Sequence record: PQ356295.1
Source of the DNA: Escherichia phage KKE7M
DNA: 64,000 nt
Reading direction: 5' to 3' (one strand)
Position 1 is the first letter of the stretch; the number at the start of each line of letters is the position of its first letter. The notes beneath the pieces are model-generated. The model had not been told where the DNA came from. It saw only the letters and a list, made by a program, of their open reading frames with translations, and ran no database searches. The position numbers and the translations under genes are program-made. This document shows positions 23,971-63,290 of the stretch, piece by piece.

Positions 23971-25704
23971 TTAGTCAACCTGGATGGTTCCCATAGTACG
24001 AAGAACCTCTACATCAACACGGTTGCGGATATCAGTGAATGTTTCATCACGTCCTTCTACTTGTGGTGTAATAACCTTACCATCCTTGAAGATAACTTGT
24101 AACTCATTGTCTTCATCCTGGATATCTTTAAAAGAAAGATTATCTACAAGAGAAAGATTACCATTGGTATCCTTAACAACCTTAATAAAACCTTTTGCAG
24201 AGCGTTTACCAGGATCAGTTTTAGGCTCCTTACTTACCAAAATTTCGTGTTCACCGATGATGCTACCTGTTGCTTTAACAGCAAAGCCAAAAGTATCTCG
24301 TGTATTGAACTGATAAGTATAACTACCAACACCAAATACAATATTGGAAGCTGCAAAACCTTTCTTCTTCAGTCGGCGTAAGATCTCGTGTTCTCGTTCA
24401 ACAGTAATAGAATCACCATAAATCATACCGATATGCTCATCAAGAACCTTGTAGCCTTTTCGGTTGATAGTACCACCAAACACTTCCCAAAGGATTTGAA
24501 TAGAACCTACTGCTTCACAATAAGGAATCTCATAAGTTTCATCAATACAGTCAGCAACACTACAATCCTGAAGAACATTGTAATACTTATTAACATCAGC
24601 CAAATGAACTACTTCAGTGGCTGTCGCAATACCATTATTTAAAAGATCTTCATAGTTGTCAAAAGATTCAACATTGTATCCTGCAACAACTTTAACCGGA
24701 TCTCCTGAATCTGGACGAATAACAAGACGACCATTTCGTGACATAATGGAATCTTTCAATTCTACCAGAATGCGAGTCAATACAGCCCAATAGTCATAAG
24801 AGTCTGCTACATATGAACAAAAACCTTCTGGAACAATTTCTTCGATATAACGACGAAGAAACTCTTTTTCTGCTACATAACGAAGCCCATCTACATCATC
24901 TTTAAGATGTGGGAAATGTTTCTTCAGATCTTCAACAATAGCTCCAATGTTAGTCGTTGCTACTGAATGTTCTGTTGCCGGAATCGAACCTGCAACAAAC
25001 TGATCATAATCAATACCATAATAGTCATGCACAGTTTCAATAGCCAGAATATTATCTGTTCCTGTGAACGATGCCAAGTGAGCGATACCACTCTTATAAC
25101 CATCTTCGATATTACTTAAACCACGTAGGCTAAAATCATGACACTGGAAGTTAACGTGATCAATATTATCACACGTTGCCATCGCATATGCCATAGCGAT
25201 ACGCTTATACTGAAAAGCTGCTGTGGCATTAGTCATTGTCTTCCAAGTTTCATCTGACAACAGTGTTTCCACATAGTTAGTTAACCAAAAGAATTTTTCT
25301 AAAGTATTATGCACAGTAAATACAGGAACACCAATAGGACACAAAACACCTTCTGGCAGAGATCGAACTTCCAGCGGAAGATAACCTAAATCGTGCAATT
25401 CTCCCCAACACTCAGCAGAAGGAGCAGAAGCACCTAATGCATTCTTAGACATACGATAAAATTTATTTACTGCTGCACTACGAGACATTTTAAAGAAGCC
25501 GTCCCACATAGTTACAAGAGCATCGGTTACTGCTCGACGAATACCTAAGACAATCACACCACGTGCTTCACGATCTGCATAGTGTGCAAAGTTTTTATCA
25601 TTACGAGGAGTTAAATTAGAGAAAATTAGTTTTGTATTTTGGTTGTACATCTGCTTGTGACCAGGTTTATACCAATCAGTAGCAAAAGGTGCAAAAATAT
25701 TCAT
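23971..25704 (-). CDS. nicotinamide phosphoribosyltransferase family protein (NAMPT/NadV-like; could be a Namat-type enzyme)
   Basis: 577 aa with RPDSGDP signature of the NAMPT/NAPRT family; adjacent to Prs-like gene. Confidence 0.75.
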   Translation of the reverse strand: MNIFAPFATDWYKPGHKQMYNQNTKLIFSNLTPRNDKNFAHYADREARGVIVLGIRRAVTDALVTMWDGFFKMSRSAAVNKFYRMSKNALGASAPSAECWGELHDLGYLPLEVRSLPEGVLCPIGVPVFTVHNTLEKFFWLTNYVETLLSDETWKTMTNATAAFQYKRIAMAYAMATCDNIDHVNFQCHDFSLRGLSNIEDGYKSGIAHLASFTGTDNILAIETVHDYYGIDYDQFVAGSIPATEHSVATTNIGAIVEDLKKHFPHLKDDVDGLRYVAEKEFLRRYIEEIVPEGFCSYVADSYDYWAVLTRILVELKDSIMSRNGRLVIRPDSGDPVKVVAGYNVESFDNYEDLLNNGIATATEVVHLADVNKYYNVLQDCSVADCIDETYEIPYCEAVGSIQILWEVFGGTINRKGYKVLDEHIGMIYGDSITVEREHEILRRLKKKGFAASNIVFGVGSYTYQFNTRDTFGFAVKATGSIIGEHEILVSKEPKTDPGKRSAKGFIKVVKDTNGNLSLVDNLSFKDIQDEDNELQVIFKDGKVITPQVEGRDETFTDIRNRVDVEVLRTMGTIQVD

Positions 25705-25736
25705 AGTTATGTCTCCTTGTTTGTTAGTGTGGGAGT

Positions 25737-25765
25737 ATCTTACTAAGCATACTCCCTATTGTCAA
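25737..25765 (-). promoter_or_regulatory. promoter candidate (TTGACA N17 TAAGAT) overlapping an 8 bp hairpin
   Basis: minus-strand TTGACA at 25765-25760, TAAGAT at 25742-25737; stem GGGAGTAT/ATACTCCC at 25731-25756. Confidence 0.35.
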
Positions 25766-25775
25766 CACTTATTAT

Positions 25776-26669
25776 TTAAAAATTCCACACGTATGGAAAT
25801 ACAATTTGTTGTTGCAAATCTGACTGATTCTTAACAAGAACACCGGAATCTTCTTGGATGTTATCTTCCCACACATTAAGAGAATGAATGCAGTCAAAGT
25901 GCTCACTTAACTCTTTAAGACCTTTAGAAAAGATACCGTGTGTAACATATAACTCAATCTTACCTGCGTTACGAGCACGTAGCACTTTAGCCAACTCAAT
26001 AAAAGTTCTACCACCATCACAGATATCATCTACGATCATCAGGTTACGCTTATTGAAATCCTGTACAGAAATGTCTGTACGAACAATAGCACCTGTTGCG
26101 GTATCTCTAACCTTCTCTGCACAGAACACATCTAAAGACATTTTCTTAGATAATTTAAATATTTTCTTAAGAGCACCACCATCAGGGCTAACAAGAGCAA
26201 AATTCTCCATACGTAACTTCCACTTTAAAGTTTCGTAAGCAATCTCTTCTTGAGGTATTACACAGAGTCTGTCAAACACTGCTGGAGTAACATCACTGTG
26301 GGGATCAGCAACGATAACACGTGAGAAATTTAATGAGTTAATTATAGAAGCAAATGCTTTAACTCCGAATGCTTCTCCAGGCTCACACACTCTGTCTTGT
26401 CGTGCATACGGTACATACAGCATGAGTAAATCAACACAATATGGTTTATGATATAGCATATTGTCCAATGCATTCTTAGTCATAACCAAAGTCATCAAGT
26501 CTTTAGCAGATCTTACTTCTAAAGTGAGTAAGATTCTGTCTGTAGCATGATTGAAACCTGATAGATTCGTATCTAATTGAACATGTTGTTCTCCACCAGA
26601 GAATGTAAACACTTTAACGTCTACATCAGTAACATAACAGTCAACACCATGCAGAATACTAACTTTCAT
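25776..26669 (-). CDS. ribose-phosphate pyrophosphokinase family protein (Prs-like; could be an ADP-ribose pyrophosphokinase)
   Basis: 297 aa with VSPDGGA and DDICDGGRT PRPP-binding loop motifs. Confidence 0.8.
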   Translation of the reverse strand: MKVSILHGVDCYVTDVDVKVFTFSGGEQHVQLDTNLSGFNHATDRILLTLEVRSAKDLMTLVMTKNALDNMLYHKPYCVDLLMLYVPYARQDRVCEPGEAFGVKAFASIINSLNFSRVIVADPHSDVTPAVFDRLCVIPQEEIAYETLKWKLRMENFALVSPDGGALKKIFKLSKKMSLDVFCAEKVRDTATGAIVRTDISVQDFNKRNLMIVDDICDGGRTFIELAKVLRARNAGKIELYVTHGIFSKGLKELSEHFDCIHSLNVWEDNIQEDSGVLVKNQSDLQQQIVFPYVWNF

Positions 26670-28499: not shown

Positions 28500-28690
28500 T
28501 GTTCCTTATTTATTCAGGTAAAGCCAAATACATGCAAGGTGTAAAGCGTGTAGAAGTAGCAGATACTGTAACTATAGGAAAATCCTTTATTCTTTATTTG
28601 TTTTATATCAATGGAGAAAGATTTGCTGTTTCTAAGAAGTTGGTAGATAATGGTAAAACTTGGAAAGAAGAGAAACAGGAAGGGGGTTGA
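28499..28690 (+). CDS. hypothetical protein
   Basis: 63 aa ORF. Confidence 0.4.
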   Translation: MFLIYSGKAKYMQGVKRVEVADTVTIGKSFILYLFYINGERFAVSKKLVDNGKTWKEEKQEGG

Positions 28691-29034
28691 TAGTGGCTAA
28701 AATTCTTTGGTTAGACGATTTAAGAGATCCTAAAGATTATGGTTATGAGGATGCCATTTGGTTAAAATCTTTTGAGGATTGGTTAGCTTTTGTTTCAGAT
28801 GAAGATAATTTCAATAATATCTCAGAGATACACTTCGACAATGATCTTGGAGAAGATCAGGAAGGATATCATGCATTCTTAGACGTAGAATGTATGTTGT
28901 ACGTGGGTGAATGGGATGCTCTTAAAACTATCTATGTTCATACATCAAATCCTTCTGCTGCTGGTAAATATATGTTAGCTAAGGAAAATTTTATTTCATC
29001 CTATGGTGTTGAAATTAAACGTGTTAACTATTAA
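28660..29034 (+). CDS. hypothetical protein
   Basis: ORF in track; likely GTG start at 28693 after GGAAGGGGG. Confidence 0.45.
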   Translation: MERRETGRGLIVAKILWLDDLRDPKDYGYEDAIWLKSFEDWLAFVSDEDNFNNISEIHFDNDLGEDQEGYHAFLDVECMLYVGEWDALKTIYVHTSNPSAAGKYMLAKENFISSYGVEIKRVNY

Positions 29035-29042
29035 GGAGGTGT

Positions 29043-29189
29043 TATGCTTTATGTTATTTGGGTAGATGAAGGGGATGGGTTTTATGTATACAAACACACT
29101 AACCATTGGCCCGATGTAGAAAAAGCACTTGCAACTTTTGAAGATTGCTTTTACGATATATATACAGACGAAGAGTATGAAGAGAATTG
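29043..29189 (+). CDS. small hypothetical protein (48 aa)
   Basis: ATG with AAGGAGGTGTT RBS; below track cutoff. Confidence 0.4.
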
Positions 29190-29549
29190 ATGTGCGCTAC
29201 TAATCAACATGATATTTGTTACCAACCTCTTACCTGGATTGGTGAGGATCACTATGCTCAACGTGTTATAGTCTGCGCTGCGAATAAGTATATTCTCAAC
29301 AATGGCGAAGAGTTAATTATTCCTTGTGTTAGGCATGCAAATCCTGTACTATCTGCACAACTTAATGTTTTAAAAGATGCAGGATTGATCGATAAACTGT
29401 TTTGCTTACCTGATAATCAAGGGTTTATTGATCAGTATTATAATTGGTGGAGTCGCAAAGATGCTTATATCATTGCAGATAACGCCAAACAAATTAACTA
29501 TGAAAGAAATGGTCACGACAGTGAACTATTCAGCGAGGGATTATACTAA
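29187..29549 (+). CDS. hypothetical protein
   Basis: 120 aa ORF. Confidence 0.45.
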   Translation: MMCATNQHDICYQPLTWIGEDHYAQRVIVCAANKYILNNGEELIIPCVRHANPVLSAQLNVLKDAGLIDKLFCLPDNQGFIDQYYNWWSRKDAYIIADNAKQINYERNGHDSELFSEGLY

Positions 29550-30100
29550 TGTTTATTACAAGTGATTTGCATTTTATGCACAAACGTATTCGAGAGTTTG
29601 CTCCTGCATATCGCCCGTGGGAAGATATGGAGCATATGACAGAAGCCCTGATCGAAGCATGGAATAAATGTGCCACAACACCAGGAGTAAAGATGTACCA
29701 TCTTGGGGACTTCTGTTTCGGGACTGAAGAAGATACCCGTAAGATTGCTTCCCGTCTCCAAGGGGATATTACTTACTGTGTTGGGAACCATGATTACAGT
29801 AAACACAGAAAAGTGCTTGCAGAGTATGGAGAAGTGGTTTATTATGACGAAGTGAAATATCAGAAGCTGTTTTTCGTCTTAAGCCATTACCCTATGGCTG
29901 CCTGGAATAAACAAGGGCATGGATCAATCATGCTACACGGGCACTCTCATGGATCATTCCCTGATCATTTGTATGGGAAAATGTTGGATGTTGGTTGGGA
30001 CGCACACGGAAAAATCTTGCATTTTGACGAAATTATCTCTATTATGGATAAGCGTGATATTGTTGTTGTAGATCATCATAAGATAATCAAAGGAGATTAA
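29549..30100 (+). CDS. calcineurin-like metallophosphoesterase
   Basis: DLHF, GDxxxG, GNHD and HGHSH metal-binding motifs. Confidence 0.7.
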   Translation: MFITSDLHFMHKRIREFAPAYRPWEDMEHMTEALIEAWNKCATTPGVKMYHLGDFCFGTEEDTRKIASRLQGDITYCVGNHDYSKHRKVLAEYGEVVYYDEVKYQKLFFVLSHYPMAAWNKQGHGSIMLHGHSHGSFPDHLYGKMLDVGWDAHGKILHFDEIISIMDKRDIVVVDHHKIIKGD

Positions 30101-30101
30101 G

Positions 30102-31034
30102 GTGGCTAAGTTCAACTGTGATGACCTGATTGCAAAAGGTTTAGTGCATAAAAAAGAAGTTAAATCTGGAGAGTATGCTGGTCTTGCTGTACTTAAATAC
30201 AAAAACAATGTATTCTGGGACAATTTGTGGGACGTAGACAAACGCCTTCTAGATTGTCGTGGGTTGGTTGTTGACTCAGAAGACAATGTTGTTATTTGGC
30301 CTTTTACTAAAATCTTTAATCGTTTTGAAAATGGTACAGATCTTCCAGCAGACCAACTTGTAGATGCTGTCCGTAAAGTAAACGGTTTTATGGCATCTGT
30401 AGGTGTGTACAAAGGGAAACTTGTTGTATCAACAACAGGGAGCCTAGAATCAGATTTTGCAATTATGGCAAAGAACCGTATTGTTTCCGAGTGTGACGAC
30501 ATAGAGTATTTCATTAAGTGGACAGAAAGTGCAAAAGCAACTTTTCTTTTTGAAATCTGTGATCCTTCTGATCCACATATTGTCGAAGAAGAACCAGGCG
30601 CGTACTTAATTGGAGCAAGAATTCAAAACCTGGATGGGACAAGTTTCATGTTACCTGAAGGTGTTCTTGATGGGATTGCATCTGTTACAAAGTTTAAACG
30701 TCCTGAAGTTTATCCGATGATTAAATTTTCAGATGTTGTTGAAATGTCTAAACATTGTAGACACGAAGGCTTTGTTGTTCGTGAAACAAACTATCCGTTT
30801 AACTTACTCTTAAAGATTAAGTCACCATACTATCTTGCTAAGAAGTTCCTTATGCGTGGTGGTAATAAGAAGTGGGATATGATTTGGGACAACCCAAACA
30901 ATGCTAAACAAATTGTTGACGAAGAATATTATACTTTGCTAGAATGGCTTCGAAATAATTTTACGAAGGTTCAATGGGCTGCTCTAGATTCACAAGAGCG
31001 ACGTAAAGAAATAGAAAACTTCTTTGGAGGCTAA
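30102..31034 (+). CDS. nucleotidyltransferase-fold ligase, probable RNA ligase
   Basis: motif I-like KVNG, motif IV EGFVVRE, motif V LLKIK; flanked by phosphoesterase and kinase genes. Confidence 0.45.
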   Translation: MAKFNCDDLIAKGLVHKKEVKSGEYAGLAVLKYKNNVFWDNLWDVDKRLLDCRGLVVDSEDNVVIWPFTKIFNRFENGTDLPADQLVDAVRKVNGFMASVGVYKGKLVVSTTGSLESDFAIMAKNRIVSECDDIEYFIKWTESAKATFLFEICDPSDPHIVEEEPGAYLIGARIQNLDGTSFMLPEGVLDGIASVTKFKRPEVYPMIKFSDVVEMSKHCRHEGFVVRETNYPFNLLLKIKSPYYLAKKFLMRGGNKKWDMIWDNPNNAKQIVDEEYYTLLEWLRNNFTKVQWAALDSQERRKEIENFFGG

Positions 31035-31439
31035 ATGAAACAACTTATCATTTTACGTGGTGTTTCAGGCGCAGGTAAATCTACAGTAGCAGAAATTATT
31101 TCTGAAGGTTATTGGCCTATCTGTGAGGCAGATCAATATCATTACACAGAAAACGGTGTTTACGATTGGAAGCCAGAAAATGTAGGTAAAGCACACGCAT
31201 GGTGTCAGAGTATTGTTCGTGATGCTATGGCATCTAATATTAAAAAGATTATTGTCTCTAACACTTCAACCACAGAGAAAGAACTTAAACCTTATTTTAC
31301 TCTTGCTGAAGAGTTTGGTTATCAAGTTATCTCTTTAGTTGTTGAAAATAGGCACGGTAACGACTCAATTCATGAGGTTCCACAACATACTCGTGATCAG
31401 CAAGAGAAACGTCTTCGCAGTTCACTTAAGCTACAATAA
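31035..31439 (+). CDS. P-loop kinase, probable polynucleotide kinase
   Basis: Walker A GVSGAGKST at N-terminus; 134 aa kinase-only size. Confidence 0.5.
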   Translation: MKQLIILRGVSGAGKSTVAEIISEGYWPICEADQYHYTENGVYDWKPENVGKAHAWCQSIVRDAMASNIKKIIVSNTSTTEKELKPYFTLAEEFGYQVISLVVENRHGNDSIHEVPQHTRDQQEKRLRSSLKLQ

Positions 31440-31448
31440 GGAGAGTGT

Positions 31449-31769
31449 ATGGAAATTTATTCTGGTGAAGGTAAGTATTTTACAGTAGTCGATAATGGTG
31501 AAATTATTATTTATCGCTACGGAAGTGAGTGGAGGAACGAGACAGGAGACGGTTATATCTTATCTTTGCTCCATTTGATTAATGATCTTAAGGAAGAACT
31601 TGAAGAAACAAAACGTTCATATGATGACCAAGTAGATTCATTAGAAAACATTATTTCAGATCTAAATGAAGAAGTTTGTTATTTGAGTGGACAAGTTTCA
31701 GAGTTAACACTGGAATGTGAAGATTTAGGTGATGTTATTGCAGATTTAAATGAACGTCTTAAGGATTAA
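31449..31769 (+). CDS. hypothetical acidic coiled-coil protein
   Basis: 106 aa ORF. Confidence 0.45.
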   Translation: MEIYSGEGKYFTVVDNGEIIIYRYGSEWRNETGDGYILSLLHLINDLKEELEETKRSYDDQVDSLENIISDLNEEVCYLSGQVSELTLECEDLGDVIADLNERLKD

Positions 31770-31772
31770 TAT

Positions 31773-31997
31773 ATGAGTACAGCTATCTATGTTAAAGGTG
31801 TAAGCGAAGATCAACAAATGTTATTCTCATTTGGTGAGAATACTGAAATGGAAGATATGTTTAATGATATCCTTGATGCCCTTTCTTCGGAAGGGTTCAC
31901 AATGATTACATACTTTATGGCAACATCTTCTGAATACGTTGATACAGATCTTGAAGACTTGATGGAAGAGATTCAAACTCTTGTGTATAATTGGTAA
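31773..31997 (+). CDS. hypothetical protein
   Basis: 74 aa ORF. Confidence 0.4.
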   Translation: MSTAIYVKGVSEDQQMLFSFGENTEMEDMFNDILDALSSEGFTMITYFMATSSEYVDTDLEDLMEEIQTLVYNW

Positions 31998-32194
31998 GGG
32001 TAACTATGACATTTATTGAAGAACTAACGAGAATTGCAAACGCACCTAACAGTAGCGAAGATCCTTACTTTATGGTGGATGATTACACTGGTGGTAATAT
32101 TGATGATGCCTATGAACTAGGCAGACTACACGGTGAAATTGAAATGGCTAAATGGGTTCTTTCGCAACTGGAGGTTAAAGATGAAACAAACTAA
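31991..32194 (+). CDS. hypothetical protein
   Basis: 67 aa ORF. Confidence 0.4.
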   Translation: MVRVTMTFIEELTRIANAPNSSEDPYFMVDDYTGGNIDDAYELGRLHGEIEMAKWVLSQLEVKDETN

Positions 32195-33296
32195 TCCTAC
32201 ATTATATGGTAAAACTTCTACAGGTAAAATTAAACAGTGGTCAGTCTATACCGAAGGTAGTGTTGTAACTGTTGCTCATGGTCAATTAGGTGGAAAGATT
32301 ACTAGCAAATCTTATACAGCAGAACCTAAAAATATTGGTCGCTCAAATGAAACAACAGCAGAAGAACAAGCTGAAATAGAAGCTCTTGCCAAATGGACAA
32401 AGCAACTTAAGAATGGGTATTATAAAACAAAAGAGGAAGCTGAAAACCATGTTCCTTCCACACCCATGAAATGTCAGGATTATAAAGATTATGCTGATCG
32501 TGTTTTGTTCCCAGGTTATGCACAATATAAATTGAATGGCCTACGTTCAATGATTAACATGCAAGGTGAATGTTTATCTAAAGCTGGGGAGGTATATAAA
32601 CTTCCACCTCACTGGAAAGAAATTCCAACCTTCATTAAAGAAGTAGTTGGTCATCCTCTTGACGGTGAAGTTTTTGCTGGCTTGGGTGTCCTTAGCCTTC
32701 AACAAATTAATAGTGCGTGGAAAAAGCATAATGCTAACACTCCGCTTCTTAAATACTATGTATATGATGTTCCTGTGCCATCTGTACCATTTGAGAAGAG
32801 GGTTCAAGTTTTAGCTGCTCTAAAAGAAGTTGTTGAAGATAAAGGTTTAGATGAACTTATTTGTGTAGTACATACAGAATACATTGAAAACCAAGAGCAG
32901 TTTGATGAATTCTATGCAAAGGCTCTACGTGAAAAAGCGGAAGGTGTGGTGTATCGTAACGCACAAGGTGTTTACGAGTTTGATAAACGTTCTTATGATG
33001 TTATTAAACGTAAACCACGGCAGACTCTTGAAGTTAAGGTAGTCAGTGCAAAACGTGATAAAAATGGTGACGGGGTATTGACAGGCGAGATGGAAAATGG
33101 TAAAGTAGTCGAATTCCTGATGCGTAAGGATTCAGATGAAACCATTAACTATCGTAAAGAAGAAAATGCTTTGACACTTATTGGTCAATTTGTTGAAATT
33201 GAGTACGAAGAATTTTCAGACGAAGGTATTCCTACCAAGCCTGTTGGGGTACGTGTACGTAAGATGATTCCAGGTACTTGGGAACCAGCAGAGTAA
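32181..33296 (+). CDS. ATP-dependent DNA ligase
   Basis: likely start ATG 32181 with GGAGG RBS; motif I KLNGLR, motif IV EGVVYR, motif V VIKRK. Confidence 0.65.
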   Translation: MKQTNPTLYGKTSTGKIKQWSVYTEGSVVTVAHGQLGGKITSKSYTAEPKNIGRSNETTAEEQAEIEALAKWTKQLKNGYYKTKEEAENHVPSTPMKCQDYKDYADRVLFPGYAQYKLNGLRSMINMQGECLSKAGEVYKLPPHWKEIPTFIKEVVGHPLDGEVFAGLGVLSLQQINSAWKKHNANTPLLKYYVYDVPVPSVPFEKRVQVLAALKEVVEDKGLDELICVVHTEYIENQEQFDEFYAKALREKAEGVVYRNAQGVYEFDKRSYDVIKRKPRQTLEVKVVSAKRDKNGDGVLTGEMENGKVVEFLMRKDSDETINYRKEENALTLIGQFVEIEYEEFSDEGIPTKPVGVRVRKMIPGTWEPAE

Positions 33297-33305
33297 GAGG
33301 TAAAT

Positions 33306-33485
33306 ATGGTATTAGCAACAGTTCTTATGATGTTAATTGCTATTGCAATTATAATGTTAGCCTCGTTTCCAGTGGACAAATGGTACTGCAATTTTTGTAG
33401 ATTTGTTGTTTTCCTCTGTGCTGGGGCGTATATGGGCGAATCGGTAGTTCGCATTAGTGTTTTGTTAGAACAATATTTTAAATAA
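33306..33485 (+). CDS. small membrane protein (59 aa, two hydrophobic segments)
   Basis: ATG with GAGG RBS; below track cutoff. Confidence 0.35.
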   Translation: MVLATVLMMLIAIAIIMLASFPVDKWYCNFCRFVVFLCAGAYMGESVVRISVLLEQYFK

Positions 33486-33494
33486 GGAGAAACA

Positions 33495-34217
33495 ATGATC
33501 GAGAATTTTTTCAAACAAGTAAAAGTGGACAATAGCTTCTTTATCAAAGCTGCCGATCAAATTGTTGCTTGGAATGCTAAGGCACGTGGTGGAGTAACTC
33601 CAGAGTTTACTCAAGAGATGTTTGAAGCTCAACTTTCTTTTGTACGAGAAGAACTTAAAGAGTTCCAAGCAGCAGCACAGGAAAATGATCACGTTGAATT
33701 ACTTGATGCAGCAGCAGATATTTTTGTGGTAGCATCCTACCTGGCGTTTATGTTCTTTGGTAAAGAAGGTGTTGATAAAGCTCTGGAAATGCCGACAGGA
33801 GATGTTCTGGCAGAAAACATCTACGATGTTATCATTGAATTTGATAAAATGGTAGAAAATGACTTGCAATTTGCCCTAATGTCTCTTACACTTACACGTA
33901 TGGCACGAGATACTTTGGTACGTTCTGTTTATAACGAGAAGAAGGTTATGCGTGAAGTGTTGAATAGCAATGAGTCCAAGTATCCTACCAAGAAGCAACT
34001 CCTGGCTATTTGGGAAACTAAGGATATTATTGAAGCTCTTGAAAAAGAATGTGATGCTATCGAGATGCGAAGCAAAGATCGTGCAGAAGGTTCTTATACT
34101 GGGGTACACGCTGTATATAACGAAGTTCAAAAGGTGTATGTATTCTTTGATGACAAAGGTAAAATTATGAAACCATCTACCTTTGTTAAACCTAATATCG
34201 CAGCAATCATTGCTTAA
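33495..34217 (+). CDS. MazG-like nucleotide pyrophosphohydrolase (candidate)
   Basis: N-terminal EExxEF...ELLDAAADI all-alpha NTP-PPase pattern. Confidence 0.4.
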   Translation: MIENFFKQVKVDNSFFIKAADQIVAWNAKARGGVTPEFTQEMFEAQLSFVREELKEFQAAAQENDHVELLDAAADIFVVASYLAFMFFGKEGVDKALEMPTGDVLAENIYDVIIEFDKMVENDLQFALMSLTLTRMARDTLVRSVYNEKKVMREVLNSNESKYPTKKQLLAIWETKDIIEALEKECDAIEMRSKDRAEGSYTGVHAVYNEVQKVYVFFDDKGKIMKPSTFVKPNIAAIIA

Positions 34218-60147: not shown

Positions 60148-60759
60148 ATGACTCAAAAAGTTGCATATCAAGTAGATCGTGAAGATGGTGAAGGTAGCGT
60201 TGTAGTTTTTGATACACATGGTCTTGCAGCAAGACGCAGAGGCGCTTGTCTATTGGACATTGGTGGTGAAGATGAATACTGCACTGTACGTAGAGTAAAA
60301 GAATTTGATCAATACGCTGAAAAAGGTTTTGTACCTGCAAAAGCACTATTAGAAGCTGGATGGTGGATACCTAGTGCACATGATTATGATATTTTGGAAT
60401 CAGATACAGACGAGTTTAACAGTGAAAATTTTGTTTTCTCTCTGGATGAAAAATGCGTTTGGAAAGATTGGGATGAAATGGAACGCCATGCTTATTTTAT
60501 AAACGAAGCATTAGATCGTAAAACTTGGTTTGAAAATACAGTTAAAGCAGCGTATCCTCAATTTACTTTTACAGAGTTTTGGGGTGGCCCACACCATATT
60601 ACTCATGTGGCATACTTCGAGTTCCCAGGCTCACGCTATAAAGGTACTGTCTACTGGGATTGGGACGAGGACAAAGAACCTTCTGCTCAAGACTTCCGTT
60701 GCTATGTTTGTCAAGGTGATCAAGAAGCCCTTGACAAGTACCTTAAAAGTCTGGTATAA
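60148..60759 (+). CDS. hypothetical protein
   Basis: 203 aa ORF. Confidence 0.5.
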   Translation: MTQKVAYQVDREDGEGSVVVFDTHGLAARRRGACLLDIGGEDEYCTVRRVKEFDQYAEKGFVPAKALLEAGWWIPSAHDYDILESDTDEFNSENFVFSLDEKCVWKDWDEMERHAYFINEALDRKTWFENTVKAAYPQFTFTEFWGGPHHITHVAYFEFPGSRYKGTVYWDWDEDKEPSAQDFRCYVCQGDQEALDKYLKSLV

Positions 60760-60775
60760 TCCGTAAAACTTAACC

Positions 60776-60797
60776 AAAGCCCCAAGCAGGGGCTTTA
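60776..60797 (+). terminator. hairpin AAAGCCCC-AAGCA-GGGGCTTT with T-run
   Basis: follows the 60148..60759 gene. Confidence 0.55.
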
Positions 60798-60813: not shown

Positions 60814-61347
60814 ATGGGTTTTGATGACATGTTATTATATGAGGAGGCTTGTGTGAAAGAAGCTATGGCTTTACCAGTTTTATCTATTGATATTACAACA
60901 GTAGACACTTTTTCAGATTGTGAAACGTGTGGATCGTATTCATCTATTGTACATGAAGTCAGTGGGGATTTAGGCACTTACGAAGATGGAGATTATGCAA
61001 GTTGTTTAGGTGATAATCGAGATGGTGAAGTGGCGAATGTTGCAAACTGGATCGCTTCTAAGTTAAAAGAAAGAAATCGTCCGTTCCCTAATCTTCTTAC
61101 ACCAGAATCTATGCTTAAAGCTGAACAAGAGATGGATGACTATGGTTATAAAGTAGATTATGACTATAATGATCCTACTTATAAAAAATTGAGTGACAAG
61201 TATTGGGAACTAGCTAATGCTTATGATAAATACTACTCTACAGAAAACATTGTTAAATTATTTTTAGATTTTGGAGTAGAAATTAATTGGGATTTCGAAG
61301 AGGAAGAGCGTTACGATGCATCTTATTGGGAGGACGAGGGTGAATGA
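60814..61347 (+). CDS. hypothetical acidic protein
   Basis: ORF 60799..61347 in track; likely ATG 60814 with GGAGG RBS. Confidence 0.45.
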   Translation: MGFDDMLLYEEACVKEAMALPVLSIDITTVDTFSDCETCGSYSSIVHEVSGDLGTYEDGDYASCLGDNRDGEVANVANWIASKLKERNRPFPNLLTPESMLKAEQEMDDYGYKVDYDYNDPTYKKLSDKYWELANAYDKYYSTENIVKLFLDFGVEINWDFEEEERYDASYWEDEGE

Positions 61348-62084
61348 TAGAACGAAAACCCTTACCAGATAGAGATTACTTGTTATCAAGGTTTAGTGTG
61401 GAGAATGGTCGTCTTGTTTGGAAACCTAAACCTTCTACAACAAAAGAGAACAAAAGGTGGAATAGCAGATACGCAGGGAAGATTGCAGGGACTATTGATA
61501 AAGTTGGTTACTCTCATGTCAAAATAGATGGTATTGTATATTTGGAGCACAGAATTTGTTTTAAAATGTATCATAATTACTGTCCAGATGTTATAGACCA
61601 TGACGACGGCAATAAACTTAATAATGCGGAAAGTAATTTATTGGATAGTAACTATTTATTAAATAATAACAATAGACACGTAGATGGGTTAGAAGGTATT
61701 TATGAAAAGGATGGTGTTTTTCTTTGGGTTATAAACTACAACCAAGAAACTTTCTCTGTTTCAGGTTTCAAAACTAAAGAGGAAGCTACTGTAGCTAGAG
61801 CTTTAGCAAAACAAGAAATTTTGAAAGGATCTTATATCAAAAAAGAAAAGAAGCGTATAGATAACACTTCAGGATTAAGTTGTGTGTTTGTGGCAACAAG
61901 AGAGAGAACATTCTTTTTCAAGTTTGTGTTTGACAAGACCGCTTATTGCAAATATGGTTTCAACGATCCAGAGAGATGTGCTATAGCTCTGGAGAAGTTA
62001 AGGTTGAAGGTGATGAAAGAAAAATATAAACCTGCAAATAAAAGCATTTGCGAAAAATATAAGGAGGAGATTTATGCCGCGTAG
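61344..62084 (+). CDS. HNH homing endonuclease
   Basis: GYSHVKIDGIVYLEHRICFKMYHNYCPDVIDHDDGNKLNN HNH core. Confidence 0.65.
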   Translation: MIERKPLPDRDYLLSRFSVENGRLVWKPKPSTTKENKRWNSRYAGKIAGTIDKVGYSHVKIDGIVYLEHRICFKMYHNYCPDVIDHDDGNKLNNAESNLLDSNYLLNNNNRHVDGLEGIYEKDGVFLWVINYNQETFSVSGFKTKEEATVARALAKQEILKGSYIKKEKKRIDNTSGLSCVFVATRERTFFFKFVFDKTAYCKYGFNDPERCAIALEKLRLKVMKEKYKPANKSICEKYKEEIYAA

Positions 62085-62889
62085 AGTCATATTCATAACT
62101 GGCGCAGGACTATCTGTGGATAGCGGTATCCCAGCTTTTAGAACAGATACTTCTTCAGGGGAGGCGTTATGGTCTTCTTATGATCTTTCTGAGGTCTGTG
62201 ACATTTTCAACTTCCGTGATGGTTATCAGCAAGAACAAGGTGTTCTTGATGCTATGGGTGGTTTAGATGCGGAAGGATATAACCTCTACCGTAAAACTCA
62301 CGACTTTTACAATAAACGTCGCGTGGAATTAGCGAAAGTTGACCCGAATCCAGCACATCTTCAGATTGGAGAATGGTTCAAAAAATATGGCCCAGAACGA
62401 ATTCTTAACATTACTACTAACGTGGATGACCTCCTTGAACGAGCAGGAGTAAATAGGGAAGAAGTGCTACATGTGCACGGTTTTCTTCCTGAAATTACTT
62501 TTCAAAGAAAAGCTGGACAACCTACAATTGTAAAAGATGTTGGTTATCAAGCCATAGATGTAGATGACTACCATTATGTAAAACCTAATGTAATTTTCTT
62601 TGGAGAAGCTGCTCCACTTTACACAGATATGTATCATATTCTTGATACACTAACGGCTCAAGATATGGTTGTAGTAGTAGGATGTTCAAACCAAGTTATC
62701 AATTTTAATTGGGAATTATTCCCTGCACTTAATATGGGTACAAAAATGATCGTTGTTAACCCAGGAATTAATTACGAAGAAACTCTTCTTTACGAAGATA
62801 GAGGAGTCTTTGTTTATCGAGAAAAGGCCGCAGATGCTTTTAGCAATCCTGCTTTCATAAAAATGATAGAAGATCATTTGACTAAATAA
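62074..62889 (+). CDS. SIR2-family (sirtuin-like) NAD-dependent protein
   Basis: FITGAGLSVDSGIPAFR NAD-binding motif, TTNVDDL, HVHG catalytic His; no CxxC zinc module evident. Confidence 0.75.
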   Translation: MPRRVIFITGAGLSVDSGIPAFRTDTSSGEALWSSYDLSEVCDIFNFRDGYQQEQGVLDAMGGLDAEGYNLYRKTHDFYNKRRVELAKVDPNPAHLQIGEWFKKYGPERILNITTNVDDLLERAGVNREEVLHVHGFLPEITFQRKAGQPTIVKDVGYQAIDVDDYHYVKPNVIFFGEAAPLYTDMYHILDTLTAQDMVVVVGCSNQVINFNWELFPALNMGTKMIVVNPGINYEETLLYEDRGVFVYREKAADAFSNPAFIKMIEDHLTK

Positions 62890-62896
62890 CTTAACC

Positions 62897-62917
62897 AAGG
62901 GGGCGAAAGCCCCTTTT
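62897..62917 (+). terminator. rho-independent terminator
   Basis: AAGGGGGC-GAAA-GCCCCTTTT, near-identical to the one at 50889. Confidence 0.65.
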
Positions 62918-63257: not shown

Positions 63258-63290
63258 AAAAGCCCCTAGAAGCGATTCTAGGGGCTTTAT
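63258..63290. terminator. bidirectional terminator between convergent gene blocks
   Basis: AAAGCCCCTAGAA-TCGC-TTCTAGGGGCTTT long perfect stem flanked by A/T runs on both sides. Confidence 0.65.

What the first reader, a model, noticed from the sequence alone, without database searches (positions are those of the whole stretch)
62074..62889. Phage-encoded SIR2-like protein lacking the zinc module
Canonical sirtuin NAD-binding signature (GAGLSVDSGIPAFR, TTNVDDL, catalytic His in HVHG) but no CxxC...CxxC zinc ribbon. SIR2 domains are best known in bacteria as NAD-consuming immune effectors, so one on a lytic phage that also carries an NAD-rebuilding pair is unexpected. It could be a deacylase or ADP-ribosyltransferase acting on host or phage proteins, or a decoy or regulator of host NAD-based defence.
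Basis: partly seen in the sequence, partly recalled or inferred. Interest (0 to 1): 0.7.

Follow-up and report, generated by a model that had tools for sequence, protein, structure and literature searches.

The report
Zinc-less CobB-like sirtuin of phi92-like phage
The gene is a real, intact, NAD-using sirtuin without zinc-binding cysteines, but it belongs to a large phage-only family that has been annotated for years and described in print as zinc-less, so the sequence finding is ordinary; no experimental test of its biochemical job was found.

Summary
It has only two cysteines and no CxxC.

This is not an immune-type SIR2: it has no PADLOC hit, and its best structural matches are E. coli CobB, archaeal Sir2 and SIRT5. 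It is also not unexpected. It matches phrog_2162 over its full length (E 2.6e-99) and is the counterpart of Phi92_gp038. Homologues occur in 982 of 50,697 phage records, including T5-like, rV5-like, Mydovirus and KVP40-like phages.

Zinc loss together with NAD-salvage genes was published for KVP40-like phages (Skliros 2016). An RNA-repair role for this phage sirtuin group was predicted by Iyer et al. 2022.

Added here:
- The zinc ribbon decayed in place; more distant relatives keep CxxC...CxxC around the same D[IV]GY motif.
- The class III Tyr/Arg pair and the acyl-lysine tunnel residues are kept.
- The proteins are acidic (median pI 4.9).
- In this lineage the gene has moved about 28 kb away from the RNA-ligase/kinase/cREC cluster that flanks it in related phages.

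Best guess: an early-expressed, dispensable protein-lysine deacylase (confidence 0.45). Main rival: a KptA-like remover of RNA 2'-phosphates (0.22).

The parts
62074..62889 (+). sir2 gene: 271-aa zinc-less, class III-like sirtuin; counterpart of Phi92_gp038; member of phrog_2162
62061..62067 (+). Shine-Dalgarno sequence AAGGAGG, 6 nt upstream of the ATG
62101..62142 (+). NAD-binding loop GAGLSVDSGIPAFR (residues 10-23). It is followed by the clade-specific insert TDTxSG (residues 24-29), where the model is least confident and may be flexible
62305..62322 (+). FYNKRR. Y79 and R82 align with CobB Y92 and R95, the class III YxxR pair that binds acidic acyl groups
   Evidence: alignment; conservation
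62413..62433 (+). TTNVDDL, a variant of the TQN[IV]D motif. N116 and D118 are kept; the Gln is replaced by Thr in 49 of 61 zinc-less relatives
62470..62481 (+). HVHG; H135 is the catalytic histidine and is invariant in 146 sequences
62482..62580 (+). Degenerate zinc ribbon (residues 137-169). The beta-hairpin is retained and all four Cys are lost. The D[IV]GY motif is shared with relatives that still have CxxC...CxxC
62596..62607 (+). FFGE substrate-staple motif. V173 and F176 align with CobB V187 and F190, which line the acyl-lysine tunnel
62897..62915 (+). Short terminator-like hairpin 8 nt after the sir2 stop codon
60731..60760 (+). Perfect sigma-70 consensus promoter (TTGACA-18-TATAAT, with extended -10 TG) 1.3 kb upstream. 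It is a candidate early promoter for the phrog_9509 / HNH / sir2 transcript
61344..62084 (+). HNH homing-endonuclease gene inserted immediately upstream of sir2, overlapping its start by 11 nt. It is absent from phi92 and most relatives
61338..62690 (+). Mosaic cassette made of the HNH gene plus the first ~205 codons of sir2. It is 56-77% identical to an HNH-less relative, whereas the flanks are 96-100% identical
63259..63288 (+). Strong 13-bp-stem terminator that closes the + strand gene block, after the 85-aa phrog_15991 gene
28660..34217 (+). RNA end-healing/sealing-like cluster, which flanks sir2 in related phages but lies 28 kb from it here: cREC (28660-29034), calcineurin-like phosphoesterase (29549-30100), Rnl1-type RNA ligase (30102-31034), P-loop kinase (31035-31439), ATP-dependent DNA ligase (32133-33296), MazG-like protein (33495-34217)
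23971..26669 (-). NAD-rebuilding pair: NAMPT-like gene (23971-25704) and Prs-like gene (25776-26669). Probably NARP1 (Namat + Adps)
   Evidence: bioRxiv 10.1101/2024.02.11.579819

Best explanation
The gene encodes a catalytically competent NAD+-consuming sirtuin. It descends from zinc-containing, class III-like (CobB/SIRT5-type) sirtuins, and its zinc ribbon has lost its cysteines while keeping its beta-hairpin.

Its most likely activity is the standard sirtuin reaction. An acyl-lysine on a host or phage protein enters the conserved hydrophobic tunnel. [quoted passage not shown] The retained Tyr79/Arg82 pair suggests that acidic acyl groups (succinyl, malonyl) are accepted as well as acetyl.

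The gene is probably expressed early and is an accessory gene rather than an essential one. The phage's own NARP1-like pair could replace the NAD+ it consumes.

What is shown: the fold, the residues, the selective constraint, the distribution and the dispensability.
What is inferred: the substrate class, the expression timing and the link to NAD+ supply.
For: 1. Pfam SIR2 hit and full-length phrog_2162 hit.
2. High-confidence model whose best PDB matches are CobB (TM 0.84), Af-Sir2 and SIRT5, all protein deacylases.
3. Every residue lining the CobB active site and acyl-lysine tunnel is kept and invariant in the clade: F22/R23, Y79/R82 (CobB Y92/R95), N116, V117 (I131), D118, H135, V173 (V187), F176 (F190) and E178.
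4. Zinc-containing relatives share the same D[IV]GY small-domain motif, so the domain is a decayed ribbon and not a new module.
5. The clade is acidic (median pI 4.9, net charge -6 to -20). That fits basic protein substrates better than RNA.
6. The phyletic pattern is uncoupled from the Rnl1 RNA ligase in both directions.
7. In this lineage, in KVP40-like phages and in phage 7-11, the gene sits away from any RNA-repair gene.
8. A consensus sigma-70 promoter lies upstream.
9. NAMPT-like or Prs-like genes lie within 0.6-6.7 kb of sir2 in several lineages. NAMPT and sirtuin also co-occur in KVP40-like phages (PMC5107563).
10. Two viable T5-like phages carry disrupted copies.
Against: - I found no biochemical data for any member of the clade.
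- The zinc module normally forms half of the peptide cleft, and here it is changed.
- The NAD-ribose-contacting Gln is replaced by Thr.
- The region after GCS (NQVINFNWELFP) is clade-specific.
- NCBIfam CobB models score far below their cut-offs (95.6 bits against 243), so this is not a CobB orthologue.
- sir2 is adjacent to cREC in two unrelated lineages. It is adjacent to a HAD_SAK_2 phosphatase in T5-like phages, where the two genes are lost together. Simple protein deacylation does not explain these links to phosphate-processing genes.
- Overexpressed host CobB restricts T4, and cobB deletion raises the burst size of T4 and lambda (PMC4271551). The benefit of a CobB-like activity to a phage is therefore not obvious.
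Confidence: 0.45

Rival explanations
1. KptA/Tpt1-like RNA repair enzyme (the prediction of Iyer et al. 2022). A 2'-phosphate left on RNA after end-healing and ligation attacks C1'' of NAD+. His135 then helps the ribose 2''-OH release ADP-ribose 1'',2''-cyclic phosphate, leaving a clean 2'-OH. cREC, HAD or Nudix neighbours would process that product, and NARP1 could rebuild NAD+ from it.
For: - In rV5-like, Mydovirus-like and Henunavirus phages sir2 is packed between the Rnl1 ligase, cREC and a P-loop kinase on one side and a DNA ligase on the other, with overlapping stop and start codons.
- In the unrelated jumbo phage RaK2, a 27%-identical homologue is followed by a Nudt16-like Nudix, cREC (E 2.4e-24) and a PIN-PhoH protein.
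- In T5-like phages sir2 lies next to HAD_SAK_2 (E 2e-20), and both genes are destroyed together in two deletions with different breakpoints.
- All components of the cluster are still present in this window.
- The chemistry parallels the sirtuin mechanism, and Y79/R82 form an anion-binding site (inference; PMC9503650 section 3.7.3).
Against: - The hydrophobic lysine tunnel is unchanged, with no added basic residues.
- The proteins are strongly acidic.
- T5-like phages, which make up a large share of the carriers, largely lack an Rnl1 homologue. Many phages with Rnl1 lack sir2.
- In this lineage sir2 has moved 28 kb away while the cluster stayed intact.
- The functions of cREC and HAD_SAK_2 are themselves only predictions (PMC7824862).
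- T4-type healing and sealing leaves no 2'-phosphate (my own knowledge, not tested here).
- No sirtuin is known to use a phosphate nucleophile (my own knowledge, not tested here).
Confidence: 0.22
2. ADP-ribosyltransferase that modifies a host protein (as T4 Alt/Mod enzymes or SirTM do) or nucleic-acid ends in order to redirect host machinery.
For: - It has an intact NAD-cleaving site.
- It is probably expressed early.
- Some sirtuins are ADP-ribosyltransferases (PMC9503650 section 3.3.2).
- The clade-specific surface motifs are strictly conserved, which suggests one specific target.
Against: - The catalytic His needed for the second, deacylation-type step is invariant. As I recall, SirTM-type transferases lack this His; I did not check that.
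- No macro-domain partner is annotated next to the gene in this phage or in the related phages examined.
- The best structural matches are deacylases.
Confidence: 0.12
3. Free NADase, or a decoy or regulator of host NAD-based immunity.
For: - The phage invests in NAD+ reconstitution.
- SIR2 domains act as NADases in Thoeris, DSR and SIR2-HerA defence systems (PMC9503650; bioRxiv 10.1101/2024.02.11.579819).
Against: - It has no similarity to defence SIR2 proteins: no PADLOC hit, Pfam hit PF02146 only, and the 50 best PDB matches are all canonical deacylase sirtuins.
- It has no sensor or partner domain and no informative fusions in relatives.
- A decoy would not need invariant catalytic residues.
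- An unregulated NADase would work against the phage's own NARP1-like pair.
Confidence: 0.05

Closest known systems
phrog_2162 phage Sir2 family (T5 Sir2-like protein YP_006930, rV5 gp080, Phi92_gp038, KVP40/phiSt2 Sir2/CobB)
   Same: Full-length profile match (E 2.6e-99). The gene is 97.8% identical to the copy in phage BME3 and shares 36-79% identity with T5-like, rV5-like, Mydovirus and KVP40-like copies. The closer relatives checked (T5-like, rV5-like, Mydovirus-like, phi92-like) lack the zinc cysteines; zinc loss in KVP40 and phiSt2 was reported in PMC5107563.
   Different: Only the position and the allele differ. In phi92-like phages the gene has left the ligase/kinase/cREC cluster. In this phage its 5' three-quarters belong to a divergent cassette that arrived with an HNH endonuclease gene.
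E. coli CobB and human SIRT5 (class III sirtuin deacylases)
   Same: Same fold (TM 0.84 to 1s5p), NAD loop, Asn/Asp/His catalytic set, FGE staple, tunnel residues and YxxR pair.
   Different: About 25% identity. It fails the NCBIfam CobB cut-offs. It has no zinc cysteines, TTNVD instead of TQNID, a 4-residue insert in the cofactor loop, a variable 30-residue insert in the helical module, and a distinct NQVINFNWELFP motif. The clade was not found in cellular genomes.
Defence-associated SIR2 NADases (ThsA, DSR1/2, SIR2-HerA, SIR2-pAgo)
   Same: Distantly related Rossmann-type NAD-cleaving domain without a zinc ribbon.
   Different: No profile match, none seen among the 50 best structural matches, no sensor or partner domains, and encoded by a lytic phage.
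Tpt1/KptA RNA 2'-phosphotransferase
   Same: Proposed functional analogue. Both are NAD+-dependent, release nicotinamide, use the ribose 2''-OH in a second step, and have an RNA-ligase neighbourhood in some phages (PMC9503650).
   Different: The fold is unrelated. The protein is acidic rather than basic (that KptA-type enzymes are basic is my own recollection). The function is untested.

Membership tests
Sir2 family (Pfam PF02146) | Profile score above the gathering threshold | tested here: met
   74.3 bits against a cut-off of 24, E 1.5e-20
Sir2 family (Pfam PF02146) | Rossmann NAD-binding loop GAGxSxxxG[IV]PxFR | tested here: met
   GAGLSVDSGIPAFR at residues 10-23. G10 and G12 are invariant; A11, S14, S17, G18, F22 and R23 are conserved in at least 90% of 146 sequences
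Sir2 family (Pfam PF02146) | TQN[IV]D motif with catalytic Asn and Asp | tested here: inconclusive
   N116 and D118 are present and conserved, but the Gln is Thr (TTNVD). This holds in 49 of 61 zinc-less relatives, against Q in 63 of 80 zinc-type relatives
Sir2 family (Pfam PF02146) | Catalytic histidine (HG) | tested here: met
   H135 and G136 are invariant in 146 sequences
Sir2 family (Pfam PF02146) | Four-cysteine zinc ribbon (CxxC...CxxC) in the small domain | tested here: not met
   No cysteine lies between HG and FGE, and the protein has only C42 and C204. The same is true of the closer relatives checked (T5-like, rV5-like, Mydovirus-like, phi92-like). The beta-hairpin is retained in the model
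Sir2 family (Pfam PF02146) | Sirtuin fold | tested here: met
   Model pLDDT 95.1. Foldseek E 4e-17 and TM 0.84 to CobB 1s5p. The top 50 PDB hits are all sirtuins
Sir2 family (Pfam PF02146) | NAD+-dependent deacylase or ADP-ribosyltransferase activity | not testable with these tools
   No biochemical report was found for any clade member
Class III sirtuins (CobB/SIRT5 type) | YxxR pair that binds acidic acyl groups | tested here: met
   Y79 and R82 align with CobB Y92 and R95. Y79 is present in 61 of 61 zinc-less and 74 of 80 zinc-type relatives
CobB orthologues (NCBIfam NF001753, NF040867 and related models) | Score above the curated equivalog or subfamily cut-off | tested here: not met
   Best score 95.6 bits against a cut-off of 243; the other models are lower
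phrog_2162 phage Sir2 | Full-length profile match | tested here: met
   E 2.6e-99, residues 2-270 on profile positions 10-270 of 277
Defence SIR2 effectors (Thoeris ThsA, DSR, SIR2-HerA, pAgo-SIR2) | Match to defence-system SIR2 profiles | tested here: not met
   No hit among the 5027 PADLOC models at E <= 0.1
Defence SIR2 effectors (Thoeris ThsA, DSR, SIR2-HerA, pAgo-SIR2) | Fused or adjacent sensor or partner (SLOG, HerA, pAgo, large C-terminal domain) | tested here: not met
   The protein is a single 271-aa domain. Its neighbours are an HNH endonuclease and unknown phage proteins
SirTM (macrodomain-linked sirtuin ADP-ribosyltransferases) | Adjacent macro-domain gene | tested here: not met
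   The four flanking genes have no Macro hit. No macro domain is annotated in the BME3 regions that correspond to this window
Tpt1/KptA RNA 2'-phosphotransferase | Tpt1 fold or sequence family | tested here: not met
   The only Pfam family hit is SIR2 and the fold is that of a sirtuin. Any similarity would be functional only
Tpt1/KptA RNA 2'-phosphotransferase | NAD+-dependent removal of RNA 2'-phosphate | not testable with these tools
   Only contextual evidence is available

The most novel reading that the evidence does not exclude
The phage-only zinc-less sirtuin clade is not a protein deacylase. It is the first sirtuin to use a phosphate nucleophile. It would strip 2'-phosphates from (or ADP-ribosylate the phosphate ends of) damaged RNA. 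Its ADP-ribose cyclic-phosphate product would be opened and dephosphorylated by the linked cREC, HAD or Nudix enzymes and fed back into NAD+ by the phage NARP1 pair. Together these would form an NAD-neutral repair cycle that counters host anticodon nucleases.
Probability: 0.2. Interest if true: 0.75.

Novelty: already known. Interest (0 to 1): 0.27.

Why it matters
As a sequence finding it adds little. The gene family, its lack of zinc ligands, its co-occurrence with phage NAD-salvage genes and a predicted RNA-repair role are all already in databases and papers.

The remaining interest is experimental. About 2% of sequenced phages, including model and therapeutic coliphages (T5-like, rV5-like and phi92-like), carry a conserved, phage-restricted, NAD-consuming enzyme for which I found no biochemical test. 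Measuring its activity would decide between two outcomes:
- Phages reset host or phage protein acylation.
- Sirtuins can act on RNA phosphates, which would be new chemistry for the superfamily.

It would also show how a phage balances its own NAD+ use against NAD+-depleting host defences.

Tried and rejected
1. Immune-type SIR2. Rejected: no PADLOC hit, and the 50 best PDB matches are all canonical deacylase sirtuins, with no defence-system SIR2 protein among them.
2. Domain fusions in distant relatives as clues to function. Eight longer homologues showed only SIR2, plus one with a WG repeat. Uninformative.
3. Context of a zinc-containing sister sequence (P0149). Only short contigs with unannotated neighbours were found. 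Uninformative.
4. Search of 185,579 species genomes for cellular members of the clade. It returned only 26-27% identical generic sirtuins. The scan relies on two peptide patterns, so absence is not proven.
5. The upstream phrog_8514 protein as a dedicated partner. Rejected: it also occurs in Pseudomonas, Xanthomonas and Vibrio phages whose groups do not appear among the Sir2 carriers.
6. Obligate coupling of Sir2 to the Rnl1 RNA ligase. Rejected on phyletic counts.
7. Fetching phage Bas63 by a guessed accession, to compare NARP1 proteins directly. This failed. Similarity to the Prs-like gene of Bacillus phage FADO was used instead.
8. Literature searches for a biochemical characterisation of any phage sirtuin. 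None was found.
9. Residue-level inspection of the model's surface.
Full report
**1. Observation**

The window carries an ATG-to-TAA ORF at exactly 62074-62889 on the + strand, encoding 271 aa. A canonical Shine-Dalgarno sequence, AAGGAGG, lies 6 nt upstream of the ATG.

- GAGLSVDSGIPAFR at residues 10-23
- TTNVDDL at residues 114-120
- HVHG at residues 133-136

The protein has two cysteines (C42 and C204) and no CxxC.

It scores 74.3 bits on Pfam SIR2 (PF02146; cut-off 24; E 1.5e-20). Against PDB sequences the best matches are Archaeoglobus Sir2-Af2, E. coli CobB and SIRT5.

An AlphaFold2 model built on a 146-sequence alignment is very confident (pLDDT 95.1, pTM 0.92). Foldseek places it next to E. 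coli CobB (1s5p, E 4e-17, TM 0.84 on the target), followed by archaeal Sir2 and SIRT5.

The gene appears to be under purifying selection. dN/dS is 0.23 against a 98%-identical copy. Against other lineages synonymous sites are saturated while dN is 0.24-0.41.

**2. Where the window comes from, and how common the gene is**

The region is 97.6% identical to Escherichia phage BME3 and other Justusliebigvirus (phi92-like, Stephanstirmvirinae) phages. The gene is the counterpart of Phi92_gp038 and is annotated in GenBank and RefSeq as a Sir2 / NAD-dependent deacetylase.

It matches phrog_2162, 'Sir2 (NAD-dependent deacetylase)', over its full length at E 2.6e-99.

tblastn finds a homologue in 982 of 50,697 phage records. 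The carriers include:
- phi92-like phages
- rV5-like phages (Vequintavirinae)
- Mydovirus-like phages
- T5-like phages (Demerecviridae)
- Salmonella phage 7-11
- KVP40-like vibriophages
- more distantly, the jumbo phages G17 and RaK2

The annotation of phage 7-11 cites a 'putative Sir2-like protein' in T5 itself.

A pattern-based scan of one genome from each of 185,579 bacterial and archaeal species found no close relative, only generic sirtuins at 26-27% identity. As far as that scan can see, the clade is restricted to phages.

**3. Canonical sirtuin, not an immune SIR2**

There is no hit to any of the 5027 PADLOC defence models. The 50 best PDB matches are all canonical deacylase sirtuins, with no defence-system SIR2 protein among them. 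The protein is a single domain with no sensor or partner domain.

It is not a CobB orthologue either. All NCBIfam CobB-type models score far below their cut-offs; the best is 95.6 bits against 243.

**4. The missing zinc module**

HMMER was run against 1.84 billion cluster representatives. In the resulting hits:
- The closest representatives all have no cysteine between HG and FGE, and nearly all carry TTNVD.
- From about E 1e-28 outward, relatives have TQN[IV]D together with a standard CxxC...CxxC.
- Both groups share the same D[IV]GY motif in the middle of the segment. Compare HGELTKMKCLDCDHYWDIGYKAWDIEKDTCPNCGKAEHVKPGVIMFGE with HGFLPEITFQRKAGQPTIVKDVGYQAIDVDDYHYVKPNVIFFGE.
- Segment length is similar in the two groups (median 37 against 34 residues).

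The model keeps the beta-hairpin (strands 136-144 and 152-155). The small domain is therefore a zinc ribbon that lost its ligands in place, not a different module.

Loss of zinc correlates with the Gln-to-Thr change in TQNID: T in 49 of 61 zinc-less sequences, Q in 63 of 80 zinc-type sequences.

**5. Active-site audit against CobB**

I used the HMMER alignment to CobB chains and checked the numbering offset against the mutant names in the PDB titles.

| Phage residue | CobB residue | Note |
|---|---|---|
| C42 | A76 | acyl pocket |
| Y79 / R82 | Y92 / R95 | class III YxxR pair; in SIRT5 it binds succinyl and malonyl carboxylates (my own knowledge, not tested here) |
| V117 | I131 | |
| H135 | H147 | catalytic His |
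| V173 | V187 | |
| F176 | F190 | |

These residues are invariant in the 16-member alignment and highly conserved in the 146-member alignment, as are F22/R23, N116, D118 and E178.

Clade-specific features are:
- a TDTxSG insert in the cofactor-binding loop, which is the least confident part of the model
- a variable 30-residue insert that Mydovirus-like copies lack
- an invariant NQVINFNWELFP stretch after the GCS motif

The proteins are strongly acidic, with net charge -6 to -20 and median pI 4.9.

**6. Genomic context**

In this window sir2 is the last-but-one gene of a long + strand block. A perfect sigma-70 consensus promoter lies 1.3 kb upstream at 60731-60760. A weak hairpin follows the sir2 stop codon. 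A strong terminator at 63259-63288 precedes the convergent - strand genes.

The neighbours are unknown phage proteins (phrog_8514, phrog_9509, phrog_15991) and an HNH homing-endonuclease gene.

In other lineages the picture differs:
- **rV5-like, Mydovirus-like and Henunavirus phages.** The order is calcineurin-like phosphoesterase, Rnl1-type RNA ligase, cREC (PF20274), P-loop kinase, Sir2, ATP-dependent DNA ligase, MazG. The genes are tightly packed. A Prs-like / NAMPT-like pair lies 5-7 kb upstream.
- **This window.** The whole cluster is intact at 28660-34217, but sir2 is missing from it. The gene was relocated about 28 kb in the phi92-like lineage.
- **T5-like phages.** sir2 is followed by small ORFs, a HAD_SAK_2 phosphatase (PF18143, E 2e-20) and two DUF7415 genes.
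- **Jumbo phage RaK2.** A 27%-identical homologue sits in the order NAMPT-like, small ORF, Sir2, Nudt16-like Nudix, cREC, hypothetical gene, PIN-PhoH.
- **KVP40-like phages and phage 7-11.** The neighbours are unrelated: a topoisomerase and a DNA methyltransferase.

These results reproduce the contextual observations of Iyer et al. 2022 (PMC9503650, section 3.7.3). [quoted passage not shown]

**7. Tests bearing on the RNA-repair idea**

For it:
- Sir2-cREC adjacency recurs in two unrelated lineages.
- Two T5-like phages (DT57C and SelmaRatti) carry deletions with different 5' breakpoints. Each fuses a sir2 fragment to the last 40-50 codons of the HAD_SAK_2 gene, inactivating both genes together. 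This also shows that the pair is dispensable in the laboratory.

Against it:
- The lysine tunnel is unchanged.
- The proteins are acidic.
- The phyletic patterns do not match. Rnl1 homologues occur in 665 records, including 175 Pseudomonas but only 15 Salmonella phages. Sir2 occurs in 982 records, including 289 Salmonella phages, and Pseudomonas is not among its ten most frequent groups.
- sir2 has separated from the cluster in this very lineage.
- The functions of cREC and HAD_SAK_2 are themselves computational predictions (PMC7824862).

An alternative reading of the same neighbourhoods is an NAD/ADP-ribose metabolite module. A NAMPT-like or Prs-like gene lies within 0.6-6.7 kb of sir2 in several lineages. 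Phage pairs annotated as prs plus nampt have been shown to be NARP1, which rebuilds NAD+ from ADP-ribose and nicotinamide (bioRxiv 10.1101/2024.02.11.579819). The window's Prs-like protein is 34-41% identical to those of Felix-O1-like phages and of Bacillus phage FADO. FADO's NARP1 operon was one of those deleted in that study.

**8. Prior literature**

- Skliros et al. 2016 (PMC5107563) modelled the Sir2/CobB proteins of phiSt2, phiGrn1 and KVP40. They reported absence of the zinc ligand, a conserved catalytic His and acetyl-lysine tunnel, and a link to phage NAMPT/NMNAT. They listed homologues in T5, SPC35, GAP32, My1 and JD001, and measured transcript levels during infection. These proteins are 36-40% identical to the one studied here.
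- Koyuncu et al. 2014 (PMC4271551) showed that overexpressed host CobB restricts T4, and that cobB deletion raises the burst size of T4 and lambda.
- I found no biochemical or genetic characterisation of any phage sirtuin.

**9. Conclusion**

The finding is real, but it is an instance of a well-populated, already annotated and already discussed family.

- **Best-supported mechanism.** A CobB/SIRT5-like NAD+-dependent lysine deacylase that is active without zinc, probably expressed early, and accessory rather than essential (confidence 0.45).
- **Main rival.** The published KptA-like RNA 2'-phosphate hypothesis (0.22).
- **Other rivals.** An ADP-ribosyltransferase (0.12) and an NADase or decoy (0.05).

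Noticed in passing
window 61338-62690: The HNH homing-endonuclease gene (61344-62084) and the first ~205 codons of sir2 form a divergent cassette. It is 56-77% identical in DNA to an HNH-less relative, while both flanks are 96-100% identical. The right-hand junction falls on the conserved SNQVINFN motif. Only 4 of 104 related phage records span the insertion. This looks like homing-endonuclease co-conversion with sir2 as the target gene.
   Followed up: partly
L073 3968-4240 (phage DT57C) and L074 3998-4447 (phage SelmaRatti): Two T5-like phages carry deletions with different 5' breakpoints. Each fuses a sir2 fragment to the last 40-50 codons of the neighbouring HAD_SAK_2 gene, destroying both genes. 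phrog_18062, which is labelled 'Sir2', appears to be built from such fusion remnants.
   Followed up: yes
window 23971-26669 (-): A Prs-like (296 aa) and a NAMPT-like (577 aa) gene pair, annotated as PRPP synthetase and nicotinamide phosphoribosyltransferase. It is probably the NARP1 anti-defence pathway (Adps + Namat). The Prs-like protein is 34-41% identical to those of Felix-O1-like phages and Bacillus phage FADO.
   Followed up: partly
window 28660-34217 (+): An intact RNA end-healing/sealing-like cluster: cREC, calcineurin-like phosphoesterase, Rnl1 ligase, P-loop kinase, ATP-dependent DNA ligase and MazG. In rV5-like and Mydovirus-like phages sir2 sits between the kinase and the DNA ligase. 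Here that slot holds three small ORFs (31449-32194).
   Followed up: partly
L071 2906-8422 (Klebsiella phage RaK2): A compact run of genes: NAMPT-like, small ORF, Sir2, Nudt16-like Nudix, cREC, hypothetical gene, PIN-PhoH fusion. This is a third, independent neighbourhood linking a phage sirtuin to NAD and cyclic-phosphate enzymes.
   Followed up: partly
window 60731-60796 (+): A perfect sigma-70 consensus promoter (TTGACA-18-TATAAT, with extended -10 TG) is followed within 16 nt by a GC-rich hairpin that also reads as a terminator on both strands. The arrangement is odd and sits at the junction between the phrog_8514 and phrog_9509 genes.
   Followed up: no
window 60148-60759 (+): A 203-aa protein of unknown function (phrog_8514) travels with sir2 in phi92-like phages. 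It also occurs in Pseudomonas, Xanthomonas and Vibrio siphophages, groups that do not appear among the sirtuin carriers. It has no Pfam match.
   Followed up: partly
phage records MG065639, MG065656 and others: About 25 records named 'Campylobacter phage' (host given as C. jejuni) are about 95% identical to coliphages of the phi92 and rV5 groups. The host labels in these records look unreliable.
   Followed up: no
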